This document shows, piece after piece, positions 4,242-64,000 of a stretch of DNA of 64,000 nucleotides; the first letter of the stretch is position 1, and each line of letters starts with the position of its first letter. The stretch is from positions 30,370 through 94,369 of IMG/VR virus record IMGVR_UViG_3300034407_001956, one strand, 5' to 3'. The stretch comes from a virus. A program made the translations under genes and the position numbers. The notes under the pieces are model-generated. The model saw only the letters and a program-made list of their open reading frames with translations. It searched no databases and was not told where the DNA came from.

Positions 4242-5425
4242 AGAGAGAGTTTTTAGACTTAGGTAGACAACCTATAGCAAATAAGTTTTTAAAGGAAGAA
4301 GAAATTAATGATGAGTTCTTCTTTGATTTAAAAGTAGTTTTTGATGAAGAGACTAAATTAGTTTCTATGAAGGACTTTGTAAAGCCAGAGTTGATGTTCA
4401 ATGAAGATTACAAATACAATACATCATTGTCTACACCAATGGTTAATCACTTCAGAGATACTGCACAAATGTTAGATGAAAGGTTTAAACCTAATAAAGT
4501 ATTGGAGATAGGTTCTAATGACGGTCCTTTCATAAGTAATTTTGAAAAAGAAAATTCTATTTGTGTAGAACCTTGTGATAATTTTGCAAAGGTTACGGCT
4601 GATATGGGATACAAAACAAGCACAGAGTTTTGGACAACAGAACTTTCTCAGAAGATTAAAGATTCCAATGGTGAGATGGATTTAATTTACTCTGCTAATT
4701 GTATATGTCATATACAGGACTTAGACGATTGTTTTAGTGCAGTAGCTAACTTACTTAGTGATAAAGGAGTGTTTGTATTTGAAGACCCATCTTTGCTTAG
4801 GATGTTAGAAAGAGGTTCATATGACCAAATATATGACGAACACGCGCATGTATTTTCAGTCACAGCACTCGATAATATTTTAAGAAAGAATGGTTTGATT
4901 ATATTTGATGTTGACAACTTATCAGTTCACGGTGGTTCTAATAGAATCTATGCTAAAAAACCAAATATTCCATCTAACAATACTATAAGTGAAAATGTTC
5001 ACAGAAATCTAAAAGAGGAAGAATCTTTTGGAGTTGGTAATTTTGAAACATATGAAATATTTGCCAAAAGAGTTAAAGACTCAAAGGATGAGTTGCTTAG
5101 GTGTTTGAAAAACCTAAGACATAATGGTAAATCGATAATCAGTATTGGTGCTACATCAAAGTCTACTACTGTATTTAATTATTGTGGTATTGATAGTTCT
5201 TTGATTGATTGTATTACCGACACAACACCTGATAAACAGAACTTACTTGCGCCAGGTAGTCACATACCTGTAGTAGATAGAGAGTCAGTAAACTTAAATG
5301 ATTACGACTATGCTTTCTTAGGCGCTTGGAACTTCAAAGATGTTATAGCAAATAAGGAAAGTGAATTTGTTGCTGGTGGTGGACAATTCATAACGCATGT
5401 ACCAAAAATAATGACATTTTCATAA
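4238..5425 (+). CDS. NDP-hexose C-methyltransferase
   Basis: FLDLGRQPIAN, LEIGSNDG, YDQIYDEH, HGGSNR, PGSHIPV, AWNF. Confidence 0.9.
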   Translation: MKREFLDLGRQPIANKFLKEEEINDEFFFDLKVVFDEETKLVSMKDFVKPELMFNEDYKYNTSLSTPMVNHFRDTAQMLDERFKPNKVLEIGSNDGPFISNFEKENSICVEPCDNFAKVTADMGYKTSTEFWTTELSQKIKDSNGEMDLIYSANCICHIQDLDDCFSAVANLLSDKGVFVFEDPSLLRMLERGSYDQIYDEHAHVFSVTALDNILRKNGLIIFDVDNLSVHGGSNRIYAKKPNIPSNNTISENVHRNLKEEESFGVGNFETYEIFAKRVKDSKDELLRCLKNLRHNGKSIISIGATSKSTTVFNYCGIDSSLIDCITDTTPDKQNLLAPGSHIPVVDRESVNLNDYDYAFLGAWNFKDVIANKESEFVAGGGQFITHVPKIMTFS

Positions 5426-14437: not shown

Positions 14438-15450
14438 AAGATTATAAAATAGCTTGGTTCACAGAAGGTGGATGGACAGGTAAAGTTGGATTAGATAATC
14501 CTAATATGAGAAATGATGTATCTACGATGTATACATTAGGAGCTGAACACTTTCCTATATTTCAAATATCACAAGTCTTACAACATTTTGGTGAGAATCA
14601 CTTTGATTTTGGTATTGTAACTTTACCAAAAACAAAGACAGAAGAACTAATGAAGTTTGATATGGTTGGTGATTTAAAGAAGTTATGTAAGAAAACTATA
14701 TCAATGCAAGAAGGTCCTCATTGGTTGTTTCAAGACTACACAATGGAACAACAGATTTGGTGGTTTAATGCCCTTACAGAATTTGATTTACTATTTGCTC
14801 ATAATAAAAAAGATGTAAACTATTATAAAGGGGTTACAGATAAACCTGTACATAAAATGCCAACACTAATGTTAGCGGAGAGGCTTGGAGTAGTTCCTAA
14901 AATTGATTCTTTGGTAGATGAGTATGGAGATTTACCCAGCCCAAAAGCTTATGAACAACACAAAGTAATTATCGGCGGTAATATGGTAAGATGGTATGGT
15001 GGGTTTGATTCTTATGTGATTGCTAGAGAATTTGATATGCCAATTGTTGCTCCATCTATGGGTAGAAGAATAGAAAGAGAAGAAGAAATGGGTATAAATC
15101 ATCTTCCTTATATGGGCTGGACAGAATGGATGAATAATTTGAGTTCAATGTACATCGGTGTTCATCTGATGCCAACACATGCGGCTGGTACATTTGCATT
15201 GAATTGTGCATACCACGGAATACCTTGTATTGGTTACAGAGGATTAGATACTCAACAGGAACTACATCCTTTATTATCGGTGGATGATGGGGATTTAAAT
15301 GCTGCTATAAACTTAGCACAGAGATTAAAAGAACCAAATCATTATAATCAATATAGTATTAGTTGTAGAGAGAATTATAAAAACTCTCTTTATAACGAAG
15401 AGAACTTTGTACCTTACATAACAGAAATATTGGAGTCTTTAAATGGATAA
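14431..15450 (+). CDS. putative GT-B glycosyltransferase
   Basis: C-terminal AGTFALNCAYHGIPCIG resembles the GT-B nucleotide-binding signature; cluster context. Confidence 0.5.
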   Translation: MLKDYKIAWFTEGGWTGKVGLDNPNMRNDVSTMYTLGAEHFPIFQISQVLQHFGENHFDFGIVTLPKTKTEELMKFDMVGDLKKLCKKTISMQEGPHWLFQDYTMEQQIWWFNALTEFDLLFAHNKKDVNYYKGVTDKPVHKMPTLMLAERLGVVPKIDSLVDEYGDLPSPKAYEQHKVIIGGNMVRWYGGFDSYVIAREFDMPIVAPSMGRRIEREEEMGINHLPYMGWTEWMNNLSSMYIGVHLMPTHAAGTFALNCAYHGIPCIGYRGLDTQQELHPLLSVDDGDLNAAINLAQRLKEPNHYNQYSISCRENYKNSLYNEENFVPYITEILESLNG

Positions 15451-15691
15451 TAAATTACAAGAGCTATTAACAATCACAATGGAAGAATGTGGTGAGTTGA
15501 TTCAAGCATGCAGTAAAGCAATTCGTTGTGATACATACTATGATAATGATAAGCTATTGGAGGAGGTTGGTGATGTCCAACAGATGATAGAGCTGATGCA
15601 CGATTACGATTTAATTAGTTGGGAAGATGTTCAAGTCCGTATGAAGTTAAAAGAAGAAAAATTAAAGAAATGGAGTAAGTTATATGATTGA
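15443..15691 (+). CDS. MazG-like NTP pyrophosphohydrolase
   Basis: EECGEL...EEVGDV motif. Confidence 0.8.
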   Translation: MDNKLQELLTITMEECGELIQACSKAIRCDTYYDNDKLLEEVGDVQQMIELMHDYDLISWEDVQVRMKLKEEKLKKWSKLYD

Positions 15692-19272: not shown

Positions 19273-20037
19273 GTGACTAAAAAATATGTAGATACATCTA
19301 AACTATCTGTTAGAGAAATAGATAGAAAGATTGCTAAGAAATTAATAGTTGAGAATCATTATTCACATCAATGGACAAAATGTACTCACGCATTGGGTTT
19401 GTTTACCACAACGGGTAGAGAACACTCATTTTTTGATGAACCTGAAGAGAAGTTAATTGGTGCTATATGTTATGGAGATCCAATAGGTAGAAACTCTGGC
19501 GCTTCAATATCATTAGCAGTACCGAGAACAGCAGTATTTGAGTTGGTAAGATTATTTGTATTTGATGGTTATGGTGGCAATATAGAATCATATCTAATAG
19601 GTGAGAGTTTTAGGTGGTTGAAGAAGAATAGGCCGGATATAAAAGCTCTCATATCATATTCAGACCCAATGCAAGGTCATGTTGGAACTGTGTATCAGGC
19701 AACCAATTGGATATACCAAGGTAATAATATAAGGTGGTCTGATAGTTGGTTGTTTAGATTTGAAGAGGATGGTAAGTGGCAACACGGAAGAACTATATTT
19801 CCTTATTATGGCACAAATGATATAAAGAAGATGAAAGGCTTAGTTAAGAATGACTTTTGGGTAAAGAAAGAGGTGAAGAAACATAGATATGTTTATCTAT
19901 TAGGAACTAAGGGAGACAGAAAGAAAGCTTTAAGAAAAATAAAACATCCGATTCTACCATATCCGAAAACAGGTGATATAATGGAATCAGAAATAGTAAA
20001 AATAAAAGTACACAAATTTGGGAGGATTGATGGCTAA
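19273..20037 (+). CDS. mom: Mu Mom-like adenine-modification enzyme (GNAT fold)
   Basis: IVENHYSH, FELVRLF, NIESYLI, ISYSDPMQGHVGTVYQATNWIYQG and KHRYVY match Mom-family motifs. Confidence 0.85.
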   Translation: MTKKYVDTSKLSVREIDRKIAKKLIVENHYSHQWTKCTHALGLFTTTGREHSFFDEPEEKLIGAICYGDPIGRNSGASISLAVPRTAVFELVRLFVFDGYGGNIESYLIGESFRWLKKNRPDIKALISYSDPMQGHVGTVYQATNWIYQGNNIRWSDSWLFRFEEDGKWQHGRTIFPYYGTNDIKKMKGLVKNDFWVKKEVKKHRYVYLLGTKGDRKKALRKIKHPILPYPKTGDIMESEIVKIKVHKFGRIDG

Positions 20038-32813: not shown

Positions 32814-32885
32814 GCGAGTATCGTATAATGGTTATTACCTTAGCCTTCCAAGCTAATGATGTTGGTTCGATTCCAACTACTCGCT
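32814..32885 (+). tRNA. tRNA-Gly(TCC), canonical; CCA not encoded
   Basis: Acceptor GCGAGTA/TACTCGC, anticodon arm TTAGC-CTTCCAA-GCTAA, T arm GTTGG-TTCGATT-CCAAC, U73. Confidence 0.95.
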
Positions 32886-46779: not shown

Positions 46780-47196
46780 TTGAAAATTTGAAAAGTGCAG
46801 AGAGTAATTAACTCTGTATGGGATTGGTCGAATAATGAGTAGATGATGAAGCTCATAAGACAATCTAATGTGAGTTGTGGTGACTTGGAACTCTGCTAAA
46901 TGTAGTAGAGGTGTAACGGTCCTCATAGACATATGACACATAATGTACTTTCAGAAACTAAACGTTGATTCGTTGACCTTTTTATGGGTAAGGGTAAAAC
47001 CGAAATCCCATCTTGTGGCTGAATAATTTAGTCTCAGAGAGATAAGGCAATATCACAGACATTGTAGTCGCTCTAACGTAGAATTAACCATCTATTAGGA
47101 GAACCAGTATAACTTCTGGGTGATAGGTAAAGGGTAATAAAAATCTGAGCTGAAAGTTGTAGGTATTCAATAATCCTACATCCCCCTAATTTTCAA
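46780..47196 (+). ncRNA. large structured ncRNA (GOLLD/ROOL-size class; family unassigned)
   Basis: Closing helix TTGAAAATT/AATTTTCAA; nested ACTTTCAG(46947)/CTGAAAGT(47150) and CTCAGA(47033)/TCTGAG(47144); more than 6 local hairpins; no + strand ORF. Confidence 0.7.
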
Positions 47197-57149: not shown

Positions 57150-57446
57150 ATGGTAAAGATGACAAATATAGCGATGGATAGGGATTACTTTAAACAAAAA
57201 GGTAATCCCAACGCTAAGAAAGAAGCTCAGTATACTGAGTGTTGTGGAGAAGATGTAGATTACGATGGATTGAATATTAATGATAAGTCTGATTGGAAAT
57301 TAATTGAAAATCATATCGAAAGGCATTTGATTGAATATTCATCTGTCGAATCCGTAACTCCTGTGTCTTGTGAAGAGTGTGGTAGATTTTTAGAATACAA
57401 AGCAGTTATAAAAGATCCTAAAAGTAAAAAGGGCTGGTTTAAATAA
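57150..57446 (+). CDS. hypothetical zinc-binding protein
   Basis: ECC...CEECG. Confidence 0.5.
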   Translation: MVKMTNIAMDRDYFKQKGNPNAKKEAQYTECCGEDVDYDGLNINDKSDWKLIENHIERHLIEYSSVESVTPVSCEECGRFLEYKAVIKDPKSKKGWFK

Positions 57447-58144
57447 TGCATCAGACTTATACACCAGAGATTTCTAAGTCAGGCAATCCAAAAGGTAAAA
57501 TGCAAAAATTTCCATGGAAAAATAAAGTTATAAATTGTTTTAAAAATGATAATCCATTAATACAAAAGAAACTAAGAGAGGTGACAGTTGAAGAAGGATT
57601 GGAAATCGCAACAGAATTATTTCAGATACTTAACGAAAGAAAAGACGGCATTGGGTTGGCAGCTAATCAAGTGGGAATTGATGCACAAGTGGCCGTTGTC
57701 AATGTTCGTGAACCTTTGGTACTCATCAATCCGAAGATTGTATCGAAGGAAACTGAGATTCCTTTTTATGAGGGTTGTCTATCTTATCCAGGCAAAGGAG
57801 TACACACCAAACGATACGAAACAGTCCACATAGAAACTGCTCAATCTGAGAGTGGTTGGATTTTTAGTGGGGTTGATAGGGGAGAATCTGGCAAAGGTAG
57901 TTGGGAAGATGATGAAATTGAAGAGGATAGAGCAGTTAGAACTTTAGAGGCTGTTTGTATTCAACACGAAATAGACCACTTAAATGGTGTACGAATTATG
58001 GATAGAGTGAGAAATACTACTGTTAAATCTGAAAAGAAAATTGGTCGTAATCAATTGGTTACAATTAAAAAGGGTGATGCAGTTAAAGTATTAAAATACA
58101 AAAAAGCACAGAAGTTTTTAAATGATGGTTGGGATGTTACATAG
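57446..58144 (+). CDS. def: peptide deformylase
   Basis: GIGLAANQVG, EGCLS, QHEIDHLNG. Confidence 0.95.
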   Translation: MHQTYTPEISKSGNPKGKMQKFPWKNKVINCFKNDNPLIQKKLREVTVEEGLEIATELFQILNERKDGIGLAANQVGIDAQVAVVNVREPLVLINPKIVSKETEIPFYEGCLSYPGKGVHTKRYETVHIETAQSESGWIFSGVDRGESGKGSWEDDEIEEDRAVRTLEAVCIQHEIDHLNGVRIMDRVRNTTVKSEKKIGRNQLVTIKKGDAVKVLKYKKAQKFLNDGWDVT

Positions 58145-58532
58145 AAAAATAATAAGACCACTACTACAGGAGATTTATCAACCTGATGGTTGGAAGATGC
58201 TAACCTGTTGTATGTTATTAAACCTAACTAATAGAAAACAGGTGGATACAATCAGAGATGAGTTGTTTAGTAAATATCCAACACCAAAGGATATGATGAA
58301 TGCTAATCAATCAGAGTTAGCTGAGTTGTTGAAACCATTGGGATTGTATAATAGACGAGCCAAATCATTAAAGAAGATGAGTGAGGGTTATGTCAAAGGT
58401 TTTAAATCTGTTGATGAGCTATATGGCATAGGACAATATGCTAAAGACTCGTGGGAGATATTTCAGAACAATAATAAAAACGTAAACCCAACAGATAAAG
58501 TTTTGTTGGCATACTTAGATATGGAAATGTAA
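58134..58532 (+). CDS. HhH-GPD DNA glycosylase (MBD4-like)
   Basis: CMLLNLT, LLKPLGLYNRRA, LYGIGQYAKDSWEIF, PTDKVL. Confidence 0.85.
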   Translation: MLHRKIIRPLLQEIYQPDGWKMLTCCMLLNLTNRKQVDTIRDELFSKYPTPKDMMNANQSELAELLKPLGLYNRRAKSLKKMSEGYVKGFKSVDELYGIGQYAKDSWEIFQNNNKNVNPTDKVLLAYLDMEM

Positions 58533-58783
58533 TGAATAAATGGGATAGAGTAGAAAAGAAAAAACGAGTAACATCTCATCAAGACATACAGATGATATAT
58601 TTTAAAACAGCATTGTTTGTATTGATAGCGATAGCATACTTCTATTTTATAATAATGGGTTGGACATTATGAGTAAAAAATACTCTGAAGCAGGAAAGGG
58701 TGATAAGAGTAGGGTGACGGATAAAAAGAAATATGCCGATAATTGGGAAAAGATTTTTGATAAAAAGAAAAAGAGAAAAAAAG

Positions 58784-59107
58784 ATGAATAAAATAAAATC
58801 ATATTGGAGTTTGTTCTCTGAATATTTATATTTAGCAGGTTTAGGTATATTGGTATTTTTGTTTACAGGTTTGTTTTTAAGCATACCATTGTGGTTACTT
58901 TGGAATTGGTTAATGCCAGATATATTTGGTTTACCAACATTAAATATACTACAAACATTTGGATTGACAATACTTATTACACTATTGTCGCCTAAAGAAA
59001 TTAAACTTTCTAAGAAAAACCCTAAGATTATTACAGATACTAAAATGGATATTGATGGGAAATTAGAAGAAGTTTTAAAAGATATTACATCACAATTTAA
59101 AGCTTAG
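58784..59107 (+). CDS. hypothetical membrane protein
   Basis: LWNWLMPDIFGLP motif. Confidence 0.6.
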   Translation: MNKIKSYWSLFSEYLYLAGLGILVFLFTGLFLSIPLWLLWNWLMPDIFGLPTLNILQTFGLTILITLLSPKEIKLSKKNPKIITDTKMDIDGKLEEVLKDITSQFKA

Positions 59108-59295
59108 ACTCTATTTATATCCATAATAAGTGGAGATATGAATGTTAGATTTAGAATGGGTATTAGATTCTTTGAAAGAAGCTAGAGACAATGAAGATTG
59201 GGATTTAATAAAAGAAATAATATCTTATATAGAAAGTCGTGACGACTTTAATGATGACGATAGTTGGTCGGAACATTTAGAAAATATTTAAATAT

Positions 59296-59702
59296 GGGGC
59301 TGTCATTGGAAATCGACAGGTGTTTTTTGAAAATAGAGTGCAACGGAGATTGAGTAGGTCTCGCTAAAAAAAACTCACCAAACTGAAATGGCGATAATTC
59401 GCTTGACGGGTTGGACATTGATTGGCATTTAGCCGAGTATGATTACTCAGCTGCTCCAATCAGCCGTAAGGCAGATGTTCAGCAAACTTACGCTTACGCT
59501 TAAGTTACTGAGTTGTCTAACACTCGGTCATAAAATAAGTTAGACAAACAACTCTTACATATGAGTATAAAGATGTACGGAGCTATCCAATAAAATAGCT
59601 GGTGTGTTGCAGGTACTGTCTCAGAGGGTTGGAACCTGATAAGTTGTGAATGACTTTTTTGATAATACAGACTGGACAGGGGTTCGATTCCCCTCAGCTC
59701 CA
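59296..59702 (+). ncRNA. ssrA: tmRNA
   Basis: GGGGCTG/CAGCTCC-A acceptor with G3.U70, 5' TCGAC motif, 3' GACAGGGGTTCGATTCCCCT T arm, tag ORF 59390-59503. Confidence 0.95.
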
Positions 59703-59720
59703 CAAAATTAAGGAAATAAA

Positions 59721-60131
59721 ATGTCAAGTGTATTACTACCACCAGCAATAGCAGCTAAAGGTTTTATAGATGTATCTATACCAATATCCGCAGGTTCGGG
59801 CGTAGCAGCTGCTGGCTATCCTGGTGTAATTGCTCCTGTAACTGCTAACTTAATATCAGCTATAGCGAGCATAACCGCAATACAAACTGCTTTATTGCCT
59901 ACTGGTGCAATAGCACCACCATCAAAAATTGGAGTAAATATAACTGGCGCTGCGCTTGGACAGATTACAGCAATTCAAACTGCTATCGCAGCAAATGTTA
60001 CTGCCGCTGCTGTACCAGCAACTGTAGCAGCTGGTATTGTTATTCCAGCGGGCGCTACGGCAATAACTGGCGCTTTAACTGCTCTATCAGCATTTATACA
60101 AACAGGATTAATATTACCACAACAAATATAA
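59721..60131 (+). CDS. Ala/Ile/Thr-rich hydrophobic protein
   Basis: 136 aa with only 3 charged residues; ITAIQTA occurs twice. Confidence 0.65.
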   Translation: MSSVLLPPAIAAKGFIDVSIPISAGSGVAAAGYPGVIAPVTANLISAIASITAIQTALLPTGAIAPPSKIGVNITGAALGQITAIQTAIAANVTAAAVPATVAAGIVIPAGATAITGALTALSAFIQTGLILPQQI

Positions 60132-60246
60132 TCTTTTTGACAGTAACAGGTTTTTATATTATATATATTATTATTCCGGATAAGGATGTAGAATTTTTAA
60201 GAAAAAAATTCCCTTTAGGATGTAATTAAAAATAAGGAGTTATATA

Positions 60247-61077
60247 ATGAATGTAACTAGTAAAGTGAATCTACCAACACTTCAAATGGTAGCTTTAAAG
60301 AATTTAAAACCTTTAAAGGATATTAACAGAGCAGAACATAAACCACACACAATATCAATGGAACAAGCTATTAGAGATAATGGTTTTATGGATGTTATAA
60401 AAGTATTTTCTATGAATGAAGATGGAACATATGATATAGCAGAATCTACTCATAGATTTCGTGGATTGAAAAATATTCATATTGATAATCTTGATGTAGA
60501 AGTTCCTTGTGCTATTTTACATTGGAAAGATAAGGATGATAAAGACGAAATCCAAAGAACTATTATTGATTTAAATGTCAATAATAAAGATTGGGAGACT
60601 TTTGATTATGTATCGAGTCATGCAGCTGCTCATTGGAGAGATAAGGAAGTTCATAAGACTTTTGTAGAAATACGAGATAATATGAAAGACTTTGCAAAAA
60701 TAAGTATATCTAATGGAGTTATAGCTAGTGTCTATACTAAAGAACTCCGTAATCACGATGTTCTTAAAAAAGCCGACTTAGCTTGTGATTTTTCTGTAGA
60801 AAGTAAAGATAGAGAGTTTGTAAATACTCTTCTAAATACCCTGCGAAGTTTAAGATTAGAGTTTGGTAAAAAGCAAATGTCAGCTCCATTTCTTCGTAAG
60901 TATGTTTACCATTTATGGAACAAAGCGAAAGAACTTAAATATGATTATAACGAATGGTATTTGTTCGTAGATAAATCCATTGAGTGTATTGAGATGAAAT
61001 TAACTTCTGTTAAAAGTATGCCACAAGATGATATATCTTTTGATGATTGGTTCTCTACAATAAAAGTGAAAAAATAG
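60247..61077 (+). CDS. ParB/Srx-like N-terminal domain protein
   Basis: INR...AIRDNGF...IAESTHRFRGL...LNVNNKDW. Confidence 0.6.
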   Translation: MNVTSKVNLPTLQMVALKNLKPLKDINRAEHKPHTISMEQAIRDNGFMDVIKVFSMNEDGTYDIAESTHRFRGLKNIHIDNLDVEVPCAILHWKDKDDKDEIQRTIIDLNVNNKDWETFDYVSSHAAAHWRDKEVHKTFVEIRDNMKDFAKISISNGVIASVYTKELRNHDVLKKADLACDFSVESKDREFVNTLLNTLRSLRLEFGKKQMSAPFLRKYVYHLWNKAKELKYDYNEWYLFVDKSIECIEMKLTSVKSMPQDDISFDDWFSTIKVKK

Positions 61078-61121
61078 TAAAATAAATTTGTATTTGAACA
61101 TATAAATATATATATATTATT

Positions 61122-61193
61122 GCGGGTGAAGTGTTATAGGAAACACACTTCGATTCCATCGAAGAGATGTAGGTTCGACTCCCACCACCCGCT
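61122..61193 (+). tRNA. non-canonical tRNA-Gly(TCC)
   Basis: Acceptor GCGGGTG/CACCCGC, U73, D stem GTGT/ACAC, anticodon arm CTTCG-ATTCCAT-CGAAG, T arm GTAGG-TTCGACT-CCCAC; deviations A8/U14, A32-U38 and A51.C63. Confidence 0.85.
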
Positions 61194-61251
61194 CAAAATT
61201 TTGGCCAGCGTGGCTACTTAATAATTGAAAATTAAATAAAGAGAGTATAGT

Positions 61252-62445
61252 ATGGGATTCGGAGATTTCTTTGACGAACCAAAATTCGACTTTGATAAAG
61301 AAAAAAAGACATTTGTAGATAATCTAAATCTACTTAAAACAATGTCGGTTCAAGAACAAACATTATATAAAAAGTGGCAAGAATTTAATGCTGATGTATA
61401 TTCAATGACTCAGAAAGCATCTAAATTTAAGAGAATTAATAATTCCCTTTGGATGCCAAAAGACATCAACAATAAAGAACAAACCATAAAAGAGATAGAA
61501 GCATTAGAACCTTATGTTGAAATGTTAGAGCAGGGTAATGCTAAGGATAATGAGACGTGGACATTGGTTCGTAGGTTGATTCATAGTATGGAGTTTACTG
61601 CCAATCCAGGCAGAAATATTAAGTTCTTTGTTAAAGATAAAGTAACCAATAAACTATTGGGTGTTATATGCTTGGGTTCTGATGTAACTTCGTTAGGAGC
61701 TAGAGATAAGTTTATAGGTTGGTCTTTAGATAATAAATTTAAAGATGGTAAATTAAAACATACTGCTATTGGTACAACCATATGTTGTTCTCAACCATTA
61801 GGATTTAATTTCTTAGGTGGTAAGTTAGTAGCCGCTTTAGTTACATCATCTGTAATTAGAGATGCTTGGAAGAAGTTATATGGACAAACATTAGTTGGTT
61901 TATCTACCACAGCTTTATATGGAATTCATTCTATGTACAACTCAATTCCACATTGGAAAACTATGGGTAAGTCAGTAGGTAGAATATCATTGAAGCCAGA
62001 TGATTCCACTTATGATGTATGGCATGATTGGGTAAGGGATAATATGTCAGAAGAGTATACAAAAGCTACCACACAAAAAGAGGGTGTAGCAGGTCCTCCA
62101 ACTGGCGTAAAACAAAAAACAATTAATATGATATTCAAAGCAGTTGGTATTAAACCATCTGATTATCAACACGGATTCCAACGTGGTATTTATTATGCCG
62201 ATATGTATGAGAATGGTAATCAGTTTTTGCGTGGGGAGATAGAAGAGAGTGATTTGAAAATGAAACCTAAGTACAATGATGATAGTGACTACATAATGAA
62301 TTGGTGGAAACCTAAAGCTATCAGAAGATATAGTAAGTTATATGATGAGGGTAGGCTAAAGCCTGAGAAACTTTTTTATGGAGACATTGTAGGTAAAAGT
62401 TGGGAAGAAGTAAAAGAACAATATTTAGGAGAAATTGGAAGATAA
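61252..62445 (+). CDS. DUF4338/DruA-like protein (putative Mom-related GNAT-fold DNA-modifying enzyme)
   Basis: PGRNIKFFV..LLGVICLGSD..ARDKFIGW..QPLGFNFLGGKLVAAL..TTALYG..SMYN. Confidence 0.75.
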   Translation: MGFGDFFDEPKFDFDKEKKTFVDNLNLLKTMSVQEQTLYKKWQEFNADVYSMTQKASKFKRINNSLWMPKDINNKEQTIKEIEALEPYVEMLEQGNAKDNETWTLVRRLIHSMEFTANPGRNIKFFVKDKVTNKLLGVICLGSDVTSLGARDKFIGWSLDNKFKDGKLKHTAIGTTICCSQPLGFNFLGGKLVAALVTSSVIRDAWKKLYGQTLVGLSTTALYGIHSMYNSIPHWKTMGKSVGRISLKPDDSTYDVWHDWVRDNMSEEYTKATTQKEGVAGPPTGVKQKTINMIFKAVGIKPSDYQHGFQRGIYYADMYENGNQFLRGEIEESDLKMKPKYNDDSDYIMNWWKPKAIRRYSKLYDEGRLKPEKLFYGDIVGKSWEEVKEQYLGEIGR

Positions 62446-62448
62446 GTC

Positions 62449-62477
62449 TTGACTTGTATTAAAATATTGTGTATATT
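62449..62477 (+). promoter_or_regulatory. phage early-type promoter
   Basis: TTGACTTGTATT...TATATT. Confidence 0.7.
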
Positions 62478-62628
62478 AAGGTATGAATAAAACACCACAA
62501 AAACACTTTTGGAAAAACGCTATTGTTTTCGTAAATGGTAAACAAGGAAAGATTACCAACTGGGCAAAGAATAAGTTTTTCATTCAATTTTCTAAAACTT
62601 CTAATTGGGTAAATGCTGGACACATAGT

Positions 62629-63270
62629 ATGGAACTAAATAAAAACAATTTGATTAAAGAAAAAGATGTATTCAATATGGTTGATAATAAATTTATAGCT
62701 AATATGTCTCCTATCGATTGGGGTAAGACTATGGCTATCGCCAATGAATACATATGTAGAGATTTAATGACTTCTTTAGGTGGTAAGAAAGTTATACATA
62801 CCGATGAATGTGTTGAGGGTAGTGAAGGTGGTATGCTATTAGAGAGGTTAAACATAGATACTTCAAACAATGGTTCAGGCTTTGATACTATTGTTCTATC
62901 TAATGGTAAAAGAATTCAATGTAAACTCAGACAGGTAAAGGGTAAGACGCCTTATAGTACACAAACCCACTTTGATAATACTCGTAGAACTACAGGTCAG
63001 AATAAAGGTACTGCAGGTGGTGGTGCAAATGGTCATGTTAGATATGGTAGTGGTGAGTTTGATTATGTTTTAGTTTCATTAATAGAAAGTTATAAAGACA
63101 AATCTGTAAGAACAGATTTAAACAAATGGAATTTTTCTTTTATTCCGATTTCTGATTTAGTAGATCCTACGATGCCAGAGTTTTGTTTATCACATATACC
63201 AGCGTCTGTATTAGAAAAGAATAAATTAGAATCTGATAAAGATTGGAAAGATAGATTTAAGGAAGTCTAA
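62629..63270 (+). CDS. putative PD-(D/E)xK-like nuclease
   Basis: ANE...GFDTIV...RIQCKLR, FDYVLV; ATG 62629 preferred as start. Confidence 0.55.
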   Translation: MELNKNNLIKEKDVFNMVDNKFIANMSPIDWGKTMAIANEYICRDLMTSLGGKKVIHTDECVEGSEGGMLLERLNIDTSNNGSGFDTIVLSNGKRIQCKLRQVKGKTPYSTQTHFDNTRRTTGQNKGTAGGGANGHVRYGSGEFDYVLVSLIESYKDKSVRTDLNKWNFSFIPISDLVDPTMPEFCLSHIPASVLEKNKLESDKDWKDRFKEV

Positions 63271-64000
63271 TGAACATATTTGATTTTGCAAAAGAATCGG
63301 ATTCCGATAAGGAATATCCGTATAAAATATTAGTATATCCTAACATCACATATATGCGTGATTTAGAAAAGGATTCTTATGTTGTAGTTTTGCGTAATGT
63401 TATTAAAGAATTAAATAAAATTCGTAATGATATTCATTGGACAATTTTATCTCCTGGTGATATTAAGAGTTTGACATTTGAGAACACAACACAAATACCA
63501 ATCAATCTACCATCTTATCCAAATGCTATGAGATGTCATTTTAATTATAACGAAATCAAAGCTAACCTTAGATGGAAAGAAACTGATTTCGATGTGGTAT
63601 ATTCCCATCTGCCAGAACATACTTTGAATATGACTAACCTATTAGAAAATGATACTAATATCACACCTAAGTATGTTGGTTATTGTCATTGGTATGAGGT
63701 AAATGAAAACACTAACTATAGTAAGCGTATGCTTATGGACAACTATAATGGTATGCTTGAGATGGAAGAGTGTGGCGTAAATAGTATTTGGTTAAAAGAA
63801 TTAGTATTAGAAAAAGCTAAAGAGTGGTACAATAAAGAAACCATTTCTAAATTAGATGAGATTATACAACCACATTATTTAGGTATAGATAAAATAAATA
63901 ATGTAGAAGTTCCAACCAAAAAGAAAACCATCATCTTCAATCATAGAGACAATTACTATACAGGTTGGACTTGGTTTATAGATAGAATGGATGAACTTTA
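63270..64000 (+). CDS. GT-B glycosyltransferase (3' truncated; not in ORF track)
   Basis: Open frame MNIFDFAKE..KILVYPNIT..FDVVYSHLPEH..VGYCHW..TIIFNHR running to the window end. Confidence 0.7.
   Translation, partial: MNIFDFAKESDSDKEYPYKILVYPNITYMRDLEKDSYVVVLRNVIKELNKIRNDIHWTILSPGDIKSLTFENTTQIPINLPSYPNAMRCHFNYNEIKANLRWKETDFDVVYSHLPEHTLNMTNLLENDTNITPKYVGYCHWYEVNENTNYSKRMLMDNYNGMLEMEECGVNSIWLKELVLEKAKEWYNKETISKLDEIIQPHYLGIDKINNVEVPTKKKTIIFNHRDNYYTGWTWFIDRMDEL

What the first reader, a model, noticed from the sequence alone, without database searches (positions are those of the whole stretch)
61122..62445. Non-canonical tRNA-Gly directly upstream of a DUF4338/DruA-like gene: candidate dedicated aminoacyl donor for DNA hypermodification
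Seen: a cloverleaf that keeps GlyRS identity elements (G1-C72, C2-G71, U73, UCC anticodon) but breaks translation-related conservation. U8-A14 is swapped to A8/U14, 32-38 is an A-U pair, and the T stem has an A51.C63 mismatch. It ends 58 nt before a DUF4338-like ORF. The only other tRNA in 64 kb is a canonical tRNA-Gly with the same anticodon, so this copy is redundant for decoding. Known: pair 51-63 is a major EF-Tu affinity determinant, and staphylococcal non-proteinogenic tRNA-Gly species weaken it to supply Fem transferases. Mu Mom makes N6-carbamoylmethyladenine and is reported to use Gly-tRNA-Gly as donor. Inference: the phage encodes an EF-Tu-evading tRNA that channels glycine to a DNA-modifying GNAT-fold enzyme (this ORF and/or the Mom-like gene at 19273). 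The Mom relationship of DUF4338 is my recollection and needs confirming.
Basis: partly seen in the sequence, partly recalled or inferred. Interest (0 to 1): 0.9.

Follow-up and report, generated by a model that had tools for sequence, protein, structure and literature searches.

The report
Odd phage glycine tRNA beside Mom-like enzyme
A marine T4-like phage carries a conserved glycine tRNA with a swapped core base pair just upstream of a Mom-like enzyme gene; it may help supply glycine for DNA modification, but nothing shows it avoids protein synthesis.

Summary
Window 61122-61193 is a real tRNA-Gly(UCC) with A8/U14, A32/U38, A51.C63 and U73, 58 nt before a DUF4338/DruA ORF. The only other tRNA in the 94-kb contig is a T4-type tRNA-Gly(UCC).

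Comparison of 18 IMG/VR relatives separates the features:
- The cloverleaf is under selection: 98.7% of cells paired, 13 of 24 pairs with compensatory changes.
- A8/U14 is invariant.
- A51.C63 occurs in 3 of 16 distinct sequences. By published EF-Tu data it binds tighter than the A-U pair of most relatives.
- D and T loops are canonical.

So "EF-Tu-evading" is not supported.

The context still favours a glycine link. The DruA-like model's best PDB match by two methods is Mu Mom (Z 10.1). The contig has three true Mom paralogs, and Mom is now shown to use Gly-tRNAGly. A conserved promoter-like box, the tRNA, a covarying hairpin and the ORF look like one transcription unit.

Against a required link: a 97%-complete relative with two Moms and the DruA-like gene has no tRNA-Gly, and the region is a tRNA/tmRNA island.

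Best reading (about 0.4): a working tRNA-Gly co-expressed with a Mom-like GNAT that raises Gly-tRNAGly supply. Plain decoding is nearly as likely (0.33); a dedicated donor is about 0.12.

The parts
61088..61116 (+). Conserved promoter-like element: TTGTAT, 17 nt, TATATA, preceded by an A-rich tract. Its geometry would place the transcription start at or next to tRNA position 1.
   Evidence: The TTGTAT(TTGAG) box lies at a fixed 34-nt distance from tRNA G1 in 17 of 18 relatives; L040 has 6 extra nt. Its function as a promoter is inferred, not shown. The consensus scan did not list it, because it matches only 3 of 6 positions in the -35 hexamer.
61122..61193 (+). tRNA-Gly(UCC) with swapped tertiary pair A8/U14, A15/U48, A32/U38, A51.C63 and U73. 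CCA is not encoded.
   Evidence: detection; family alignment and covariation; T-stem EF-Tu model.
61202..61216 (+). Small conserved hairpin (5-bp stem, 5-nt loop) in the spacer between tRNA and ORF. No U-run follows it, so it is not a typical terminator.
   Evidence: Present in all tRNA-bearing relatives, with compensatory changes in L005 and L020. Also appears in the RNA fold. Its role is unknown.
61239..61246 (+). Shine-Dalgarno-like AAGAGAG ahead of the ATG at 61252.
   Evidence: Read from the sequence; conserved as AGAGAG or AGGA in relatives.
61252..62445 (+). DUF4338/DruA-family protein, 397 aa. GNAT core at about residues 81-328, with a helical insertion at about 251-298; best structural match is Mu Mom.
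   Evidence: Pfam 6.2e-24; PADLOC 4.8e-23; AF2 model pLDDT 86.6; Foldseek top hit 8bv8; VIA-align Z 10.1.
32814..32885 (+). Second, canonical T4-type tRNA-Gly(UCC) with U8, A14 and C32.
   Evidence: It is 80-90% identical to tRNA-Gly genes of hundreds of deposited phages.
19273..20037 (+). Mom-family GNAT, one of three paralogs in the contig. It keeps the equivalents of Mu Mom R111, S124 and D149; R151 is Met.
   Evidence: Pfam PF25680 1.4e-45; PHROG 'Mom-like' 3.4e-52; alignment to PDB 8bv8. The other two paralogs lie at contig positions 11913-12584 and 15042-15641, outside the window.
59296..59705 (+). Phage-encoded tmRNA. It marks this region as the phage's small-RNA island, upstream of the tRNA.
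   Evidence: Rfam RF00023 74.4 bits; ARAGORN tag peptide; conserved in relatives.

Best explanation
The element is a real, selected, glycine-accepting phage tRNA. It belongs to a family, seen only in uncultured marine T4-like myophages, in which the universal U8-A14 tertiary pair is swapped to A8-U14. It sits between a conserved promoter-like box and a Mom-like GNAT gene (DUF4338/DruA) and is most likely transcribed with that gene.

In a phage with three true Mom paralogs plus this Mom-like GNAT, its most likely job is to raise the infected cell's pool of Gly-tRNAGly. That pool serves both translation and Mom-type glycyl transfer to DNA.

Shown here: the tRNA, its conservation and covariation, the GlyRS identity set, the fold of the DruA-like protein, and the Mom paralogs.
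Inferred: co-transcription, charging by GlyRS, use as a donor, and any preference of the enzymes for this tRNA.
Not supported: exclusion from EF-Tu or the ribosome.
For: (1) The cloverleaf is kept with 13 of 24 pairs showing two-sided changes, and A8/U14 is invariant.
(2) G1-C72, C2-G71, G3-C70, U73, C35 and C36 are invariant across relatives.
(3) The tRNA, hairpin and ORF are contiguous in all 18 members of one DruA clade (SH-aLRT 99). The same arrangement is found upstream of a distant DruA lineage, L040, at 61% amino-acid identity.
(4) Relatives without the tRNA carry a strong sigma70-type promoter directly upstream of the gene. Here that place is taken by a conserved promoter-like box, then the tRNA and the hairpin.
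(5) One metatranscriptome-library contig joins the tRNA to the ORF; this is a weak hint only.
(6) Mu Mom is the top solved-structure match of the DruA-like model by Foldseek (E 1.1e-3) and by VIA-align (Z 10.1, rmsd 3.5, 165 of 202 residues), above generic GNATs at Z 8.6 or less.
(7) The contig has three Mom paralogs, and Mom uses Gly-tRNAGly as co-substrate (PMC13219725).
(8) The only tRNAs in the 94-kb contig are two tRNA-Gly. In relative G001 (165 kb, 79% complete, three Moms) this tRNA is the only tRNA found.
(9) No deposited phage and no cellular genome among 185,579 species carries this tRNA type. The single genome hit is a phage-like contig binned in a MAG. So it is not simply a copied host tRNA.
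Against: - G007 is 97% complete and has two Moms and the DruA-like gene, but no tRNA-Gly. Pelagibacter phage Mosig has a DUF4338 gene and only Pro, Arg and Leu tRNAs. The enzymes therefore do not need a phage tRNA-Gly.
- Mu Mom accepts all E. coli tRNAGly isoacceptors, so no private donor is required in the one case tested.
- T4-like phages commonly carry tRNA-Gly(UCC).
- This locus is a tRNA/tmRNA island in relatives, with Ala, Cys, Glu, Tyr and tmRNA nearby, so adjacency could be plain synteny.
- The co-substrate of DUF4338 is unknown and could be an acyl-CoA.
- Sequence-level homology between DruA and Mom is not significant (hhalign probability 1.8%; no Pfam Mom hit at E up to 10).
Confidence: 0.4

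Rival explanations
1. Ordinary decoding tRNA with incidental adjacency. It is a second phage tRNA-Gly paralog used only in translation. It sits next to the DruA-like gene because the phage's tRNA/tmRNA island lies there, and the A8/U14 swap is a tolerated lineage quirk.
For: - The elbow is canonical (G18G19, UUCGACU T loop), as are U33, A37 and the 7-bp acceptor stem.
- The wobble base changed from U to A in L009, L013 and L038 while C35 and C36 stayed. This fits the phage's codon use, GGT 57% and GGA 30% of Gly codons.
- Other tRNAs and the tmRNA cluster in the same region in relatives.
- The canonical tRNA is likewise wedged between ORFs.
- Relatives do without it.
Against: - A canonical tRNA-Gly(UCC) is already present in the same genome, and also in L010.
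- The tRNA-Gly is the copy retained when all other tRNAs are absent (G000, G001).
- The invariant A8/U14 swap across covarying stems argues for selection on an unusual core.
- The promoter box, tRNA, hairpin and GNAT gene occur together upstream of two divergent DruA lineages.
Confidence: 0.33
2. One reading: a dedicated, non-proteinogenic glycine donor. The tRNA is kept away from EF-Tu and the ribosome and channels glycine to the DruA-like or Mom GNATs, as staphylococcal NP-tRNAGly does for the Fem transferases.
For: - Most family members have T stems predicted at -9.5 to -9.7 kcal/mol. This equals the staphylococcal NP tRNAs (-9.6) and is weaker than the bacterial Gly mean of -10.8.
- The core pair swap is invariant.
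- A parallel exists in HTVC008M, which has two DUF4338 genes and no Mom. Its only tRNA is a tRNA-Gly(ACC) with a re-built elbow: no G18G19 and T loop AGCGUUA. That type is conserved in 51 viral contigs.
Against: - The window's own copy is predicted at -10.4, because A.C at 51-63 is a tight pair.
- The canonical copy is equally 'weak' at -9.6, so the T-stem measure does not separate the two tRNAs.
- None of the staphylococcal NP hallmarks is present: no loss of G18G19 and no UGC T loop.
- Mu Mom shows no isoacceptor preference.
- Whether A8/U14 affects EF-Tu or the ribosome is unknown.
Confidence: 0.12
3. A defence-resistant or degradation-resistant replacement tRNA. The altered core or anticodon loop lets it escape a host tRNA-targeting defence, or phage-induced tRNA turnover, that hits host tRNA-Gly.
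For: - The family has no counterpart in cellular genomes.
- Its variants lie at positions touched by tRNA-binding enzymes: position 8, which is s4U in bacteria, and 32/38.
- That phage tRNAs can serve this role is established knowledge recalled from memory, not checked here.
Against: No tRNA-Gly-specific nuclease or defence is identified in this context. The anticodon loop alternates between two ordinary forms. The tight linkage to the GNAT gene is not explained.
Confidence: 0.08
4. Mainly a cis-acting RNA element. The tRNA fold serves as a processing or stability signal (RNase P/Z sites plus the hairpin) that defines the 5' end of the DruA-like mRNA.
For: The tRNA lies between the putative promoter and the ORF. 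A conserved hairpin follows it with no terminator.
Against: The full GlyRS identity set, the anticodon loop and C35/C36 are invariant, which a mere processing signal would not need. Relatives express the gene without it.
Confidence: 0.05

Closest known systems
Staphylococcal non-proteinogenic tRNAGly (NP1-3) feeding FmhB/FemA/FemB (PMC7826273)
   Same: An extra tRNA-Gly(UCC) paralog sits beside a canonical one. GlyRS identity is kept. A GNAT-fold aminoacyl-transferase is encoded in the same genome. Many family members have a predicted weak T stem.
   Different: G18G19 and the UUC T loop are retained here. The window's T stem is not weak. The canonical copy is just as weak as the relatives. The unusual feature here, the A8/U14 swap, is not an NP hallmark. 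No biochemical data exist for this tRNA.
Phage Mu Mom, a Gly-tRNAGly-dependent N6-adenine modification enzyme (PMC13219725, PDB 8bv8)
   Same: The contig encodes three true Mom-family proteins. The ORF next to the tRNA has a GNAT core whose best solved match is Mom, including a helical insertion late in the fold.
   Different: Mu has no tRNA of its own, and Mom accepts all host isoacceptors. The DruA-like protein is not a sequence-level member of the Mom family. It is about 170 residues longer, with added N- and C-terminal helices. Its donor and target are unknown.
DruA (DUF4338) of type I Druantia anti-phage systems
   Same: Clear Pfam and PADLOC family membership across the GNAT core.
   Different: It is encoded by a phage, stands alone without DruB-E, and is abundant in marine T4-like phages, including pelagiphages and cyanophages.
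T4-type phage tRNA-Gly(UCC)
   Same: A T4-like phage carrying tRNA-Gly(UCC) is common. The window's other copy, at 32814, is of this type.
   Different: The tRNA at 61122 has no detectable blastn relative in 50,697 deposited phage records, and it carries A8/U14.

Membership tests
tRNA (Rfam RF00005) | Cloverleaf scoring above the gathering threshold | tested here: met
   52.7 bits against a threshold of 29; ARAGORN call; covariation in 13 of 24 pairs.
Bacterial-type tRNA-Gly (GlyRS substrate) | U73, G1-C72, C2-G71, G3-C70, C35, C36 (identity set recalled from established knowledge) | tested here: met
   All are present and invariant in 18 relatives. Actual charging cannot be tested with these tools.
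Non-proteinogenic tRNAGly (staphylococcal type) | Loss of G18G19 and of the UUC (T-Psi-C) triplet in the T loop | tested here: not met
   The D loop is UAUAGGAA and the T loop UUCGACU. Hallmarks as described in PMC7826273.
Non-proteinogenic tRNAGly (staphylococcal type) | Weak EF-Tu T stem (A49-U65, U50-A64, A51-U63; about -9.6 kcal/mol) | tested here: not met
   The window has G-C, U-A and A.C, giving -10.4 by the three-pair model. Most relatives are -9.5 to -9.7, but so is the canonical copy.
DruA / DUF4338 (Pfam PF14236) | Profile match above the curated cut-off | tested here: met
   85.1 bits against a cut-off of 27, residues 53-328; PADLOC PDLC00002 4.8e-23.
Type I Druantia defence system | DruA together with DruB, DruC, DruD and the large helicase DruE in one locus | tested here: not met
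   No ORF longer than 397 aa lies in 58000-64000, and the neighbours have no defence-family hits. The context is a phage.
Mom family (Pfam PF25680), for ORF 61252-62445 | Sequence-profile membership | tested here: not met
   No Mom hit at E up to 10 in any of 25 homologs. hhalign against the phage's own Moms gives probability 1.8%.
Mom-like GNAT fold, for ORF 61252-62445 | GNAT core with Mom as nearest solved structure | tested here: met
   Foldseek rank 1, 8bv8, E 1.1e-3. VIA-align rank 1, Z 10.1, rmsd 3.5, 165 of 202 residues, with the next hit at 8.6. A phage Mom is also among the BFVD hits. A shared fold does not show a shared co-substrate.
Mom family (Pfam PF25680), for ORF 19273-20037 | Profile match, plus the catalytic residues R111, S124, D149 and R151 of Mu Mom | tested here: met
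   155.9 bits against a cut-off of 27.1. In the alignment to 8bv8, the R111, S124 and D149 equivalents are kept and R151 is Met. Activity was not tested.

The most novel reading that the evidence does not exclude
Marine T4-like phages that carry DUF4338/Mom-type GNATs may have evolved, at least twice, structurally re-wired tRNA-Gly species. One is the A8-U14 swap described here. The other is the HTVC008M-type tRNA-Gly(ACC), with an A54/U58 swap, G55 and no G18. These would serve as private glycine donors, partitioned from translation, for aminoacyl-tRNA-dependent modification of DNA or another target. That would be a viral counterpart of the staphylococcal NP-tRNAGly/Fem system.
Probability: 0.15. 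Interest if true: 0.85.

Novelty: new variant of a known kind. Interest (0 to 1): 0.6.

Why it matters
Mom's use of Gly-tRNAGly to modify DNA was established only in 2026. No phage-encoded tRNA has yet been tied to such chemistry.

This phage group combines several features in one genome: multiple Mom paralogs, an abundant but uncharacterised Mom-like GNAT (DUF4338, which is also the DruA component of Druantia), and tRNA-Gly as the only tRNA species found in this contig and in one large relative (G001).

If the tRNA is a supply line or a preferred donor, that would give phage tRNAs a new role beyond codon matching. It would also offer a way into the unknown biochemistry of DUF4338/DruA. If it is not, the family is still a natural experiment on swapping the near-universal U8-A14 pair.

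Tried and rejected
- Sequence homology between DruA-like and Mom: hhalign of 25 DruA-like against 14 Mom sequences gave probability 1.8%. Pfam scans at E up to 10 showed no Mom or acetyltransferase hit. phmmer against PDB found nothing. Only the structure links them.
- blastn of the locus and of the odd tRNA against 50,697 phage records: no match.
- A loose IMG/VR pattern for A8/U14 tRNAs gave mostly chance hits in coding DNA. One 'tRNA' in L211 lies inside an ORF and was discarded. A stricter pattern gave 7 non-tRNA chance hits and otherwise only the known clade.
- A T4-late-type TATAAATA box upstream of the tRNA is present in the window but not conserved in relatives. The consensus promoter/terminator scan was no better than shuffles.
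- The fold of tRNA plus spacer is not more stable than shuffles (z -1.06).
- RNA-library contigs cover the tmRNA, the tRNA and the ORF. Contigs cannot show ends, strand or level, and DNA carry-over cannot be excluded.
- A literature search for 'A8-U14' found nothing. A Druantia paper search gave no functional data on DruA.
- Earlier notes of this scan on the same genome did not bear on this locus.
- No complex prediction was attempted, because the tool cannot take a tRNA as partner.
- A genome-wide test of tRNA-Gly enrichment in Mom-bearing phages was not run: too few calls for a phylogenetically controlled sample.
Full report
**What is there**

The window is part of a 94,369-nt viral contig with 33.5% G+C. 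It comes from an uncultured marine T4-like myophage. The closest cultured relatives of the ORF in question are Pelagibacter phages Mosig (33% identity) and HTVC008M (29%), followed by cyanomyophages.

ARAGORN and Rfam agree on a tRNA-Gly(UCC) at 61122-61193 (52.7 bits). They also find a second tRNA-Gly(UCC) at 32814-32885 (66.1 bits), a tmRNA at 59296-59705 and a manA RNA. No other tRNA exists in the whole contig.

- G1-C72, C2-G71, G3-C70 and U73
- A8 and U14
- A15/U48
- A32/U38
- A51.C63
- no encoded CCA

It ends 58 nt before ORF 61252-62445. That ORF is a clear DUF4338/DruA family member (Pfam 6.2e-24; PADLOC 4.8e-23).

**Is the tRNA real, and which oddities matter?**

A scan of IMG/VR with the ORF gave 80 related loci. 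In 21 of them the same tRNA lies 55-60 nt upstream of the gene.

An alignment of 18 copies (16 distinct) shows the following:
- 98.7% of cells are paired.
- 13 of 24 pairs carry changes on both sides.
- 0 of 500 shuffles reach the observed covariation.

The cloverleaf is therefore under purifying selection. Within it:
- A8/U14 is invariant.
- 32/38 is A-U in half of the sequences and U-A in the other half.
- The 51-63 mismatch occurs only in the window, L004 and L013.
- The GlyRS identity positions, U33 and A37 never vary.
- G18G19 and the UUCG T loop are kept in 17 of the 18 copies (L010 deviates at both).
- The wobble base is A instead of U in three loci (L009, L013, L038).

**EF-Tu**

The published three-pair model gives, for position 51-63 and relative to G-C: A-C +0.2, A-U +1.1 and U-A +1.0 kcal/mol (PMC3239215, Table 2). 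I anchored the scale on the -9.6 kcal/mol quoted for the staphylococcal non-proteinogenic tRNAs (PMC7826273). The predictions are:

| tRNA | Predicted binding (kcal/mol) |
|---|---|
| Window tRNA at 61122 | -10.4 |
| Most relatives | -9.5 to -9.7 |
| Two relatives | -10.6 |
| Canonical copy at 32814 | -9.6 |
| Bacterial tRNA-Gly mean | -10.8 |

The T-stem measure also does not separate the odd copy from the canonical one. None of the other staphylococcal hallmarks is present, namely loss of G18G19 and a UGC T loop.

**The protein**

An AlphaFold2 model built on 25 homologs (pLDDT 86.6) has a GNAT core at about residues 81-328, with extra N- and C-terminal helices. Three structure searches point the same way:
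- Foldseek against the PDB ranks Mu Mom (8bv8) first, E 1.1e-3.
- The independent VIA-align search of 48,161 chains also ranks it first: Z 10.1, rmsd 3.5, 165 of 202 residues. Generic GNATs follow at 8.6 or less, and FemA scores 7.6.
- In BFVD a phage Mom is among the hits. DUF4338-like proteins of giant viruses rank higher.

Sequence profiles do not connect the two families. The literature independently calls DUF4338 a GNAT domain (PMC10853773). The co-substrate of DUF4338 is unknown.

**The Mom context**

Silva et al. (PMC13219725) show that Mu Mom transfers glycine from Gly-tRNAGly to N6 of adenine in dsDNA. It accepts all three E. coli isoacceptors and depends on R111, S124 and R151.

ORF 19273-20037 is a true Mom: Pfam 1.4e-45, with the R111, S124 and D149 equivalents kept. 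The contig holds two more Mom paralogs upstream of the window. Eight of the ten related viral records searched also carry one to three Moms; the two without a match are about 40-51% complete fragments.

**Linkage**

In relatives that lack the tRNA, the gene is preceded by a strong sigma70-type promoter, TTGACA-17-TATATT. In the tRNA clade that place is taken by four elements in series:
- an A-rich tract
- a conserved TTGTAT-17-TAnnTA box at a fixed distance from tRNA position 1
- the tRNA
- a small hairpin with compensatory changes

No terminator lies in the spacer. One metatranscriptome-library contig bridges the tRNA and the ORF, which is weak evidence.

On a tree of the DruA-like proteins, all 18 members of one well-supported clade carry the tRNA. 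L040, in a distant clade, carries it too. This means either that the module moved or that it was lost several times.

This tRNA type was found nowhere else:
- Pattern scans of IMG/VR found it only directly upstream of this gene.
- It has no match in deposited phages.
- Among 185,579 species genomes the only hit is a phage-like contig binned in a MAG.

**Against an obligatory link**

- G007 is 97% complete and has two Moms and the DruA-like gene. It has tRNAs for Arg, Met, Leu, Ala and Glu, but none for Gly.
- G006 has a tRNA-Gly(GCC) among five tRNAs.
- Mosig has only Pro, Arg and Leu tRNAs.
- The region upstream of the gene is a tRNA/tmRNA island in several relatives.
- T4-type tRNA-Gly(UCC) is common in phages.

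**For a glycine connection**

- Two tRNA-Gly genes are the only tRNAs in this contig.
- The odd tRNA is the only tRNA found in G001, which is 165 kb, 79% complete and has three Moms.
- In an independent lineage, the complete HTVC008M genome has two DUF4338 genes, no Mom, and a single tRNA. That tRNA is a tRNA-Gly(ACC) with no G18G19 and T loop AGCGUUA. It belongs to a family of 51 viral contigs with covarying stems, and DUF4338 lies 4-7 kb upstream.

**Verdict**

The sequence observation is confirmed. The biochemical premise (Mom uses Gly-tRNAGly) and the fold relationship (DUF4338 is Mom-like) both hold. The EF-Tu-evasion reasoning does not hold.

My estimates are:
- 0.40: a working tRNA-Gly, co-expressed with a Mom-like GNAT, that boosts the Gly-tRNAGly pool in a phage heavily invested in Mom-type chemistry.
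- 0.33: a purely translational tRNA with incidental adjacency.
- 0.12: a dedicated, translation-excluded donor.

The question is now directly testable with in vitro charging, EF-Tu binding and glycyl-transfer assays.

Noticed in passing
L002:8917-8990 (Pelagibacter phage HTVC008M, record 91140-91210); IMG/VR loci L256-L306: The only tRNA of the complete HTVC008M genome is a tRNA-Gly(ACC) with a re-built elbow: D loop without G18G19 and T loop AGCGUUA (A54/U58 in place of T54/A58, and G55). It is a conserved family in 51 viral contigs, with compensatory stem changes. DUF4338 lies 4-7 kb upstream where the contig reaches that far. HTVC008M has two DUF4338 genes and no Mom.
   Followed up: partly
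window 59296-59705: Phage-encoded one-piece tmRNA (Rfam 74.4 bits; tag ending ...QQTYAYA). It is conserved, with varying tags, in many related viral contigs and is also seen in RNA-library contigs.
   Followed up: partly
contig G000:C1:11913-12584 and 15042-15641 (locus L094:1381-2148 and 4531-5172), plus window 19273-20037: Three Mom-family paralogs occur in one phage contig. Two of them lie in the replication module, next to clamp and clamp-loader-like genes in relatives. Eight of ten related records searched carry one to three Moms, tandem in some. The paralogs may differ in sequence motif or aminoacyl specificity.
   Followed up: partly
window 46983-47184: manA RNA motif (Rfam RF01745, 64.7 bits; gathering score 55.2).
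   Followed up: no
L310 (NHIV01000037.1, 'MAG: bacterium TMED198', 7552 nt): A contig binned in a bacterial MAG carries the phage arrangement tmRNA, tRNA-Ala, tRNA-Cys and the A8/U14 tRNA-Gly. It is probably a mis-binned phage fragment.
   Followed up: partly
window 57446-58532: A peptide deformylase gene (Pfam 1e-26) is followed by an HhH-GPD glycosylase-like ORF. In Mosig and HTVC008M the gene directly abutting the DUF4338 gene is the one Mosig's record annotates as putative peptide deformylase (hypothetical protein in HTVC008M). The block with the tmRNA, two ORFs and the tRNA therefore looks like an insertion in this lineage.
   Followed up: partly
BFVD hits to model m6c7ef1188d5d: DUF4338-like folds occur in giant viruses (Faunusvirus, Yasminevirus, Dasosvirus), some inside proteins of more than 1100 aa.
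   Followed up: no
window 62449-62477: A strong sigma70-type promoter (TTGACT-17-TATATT, 10 of 12 matches) lies directly after the DruA-like stop codon. This suggests the tRNA-DruA unit ends there and a new early transcript begins.
   Followed up: no
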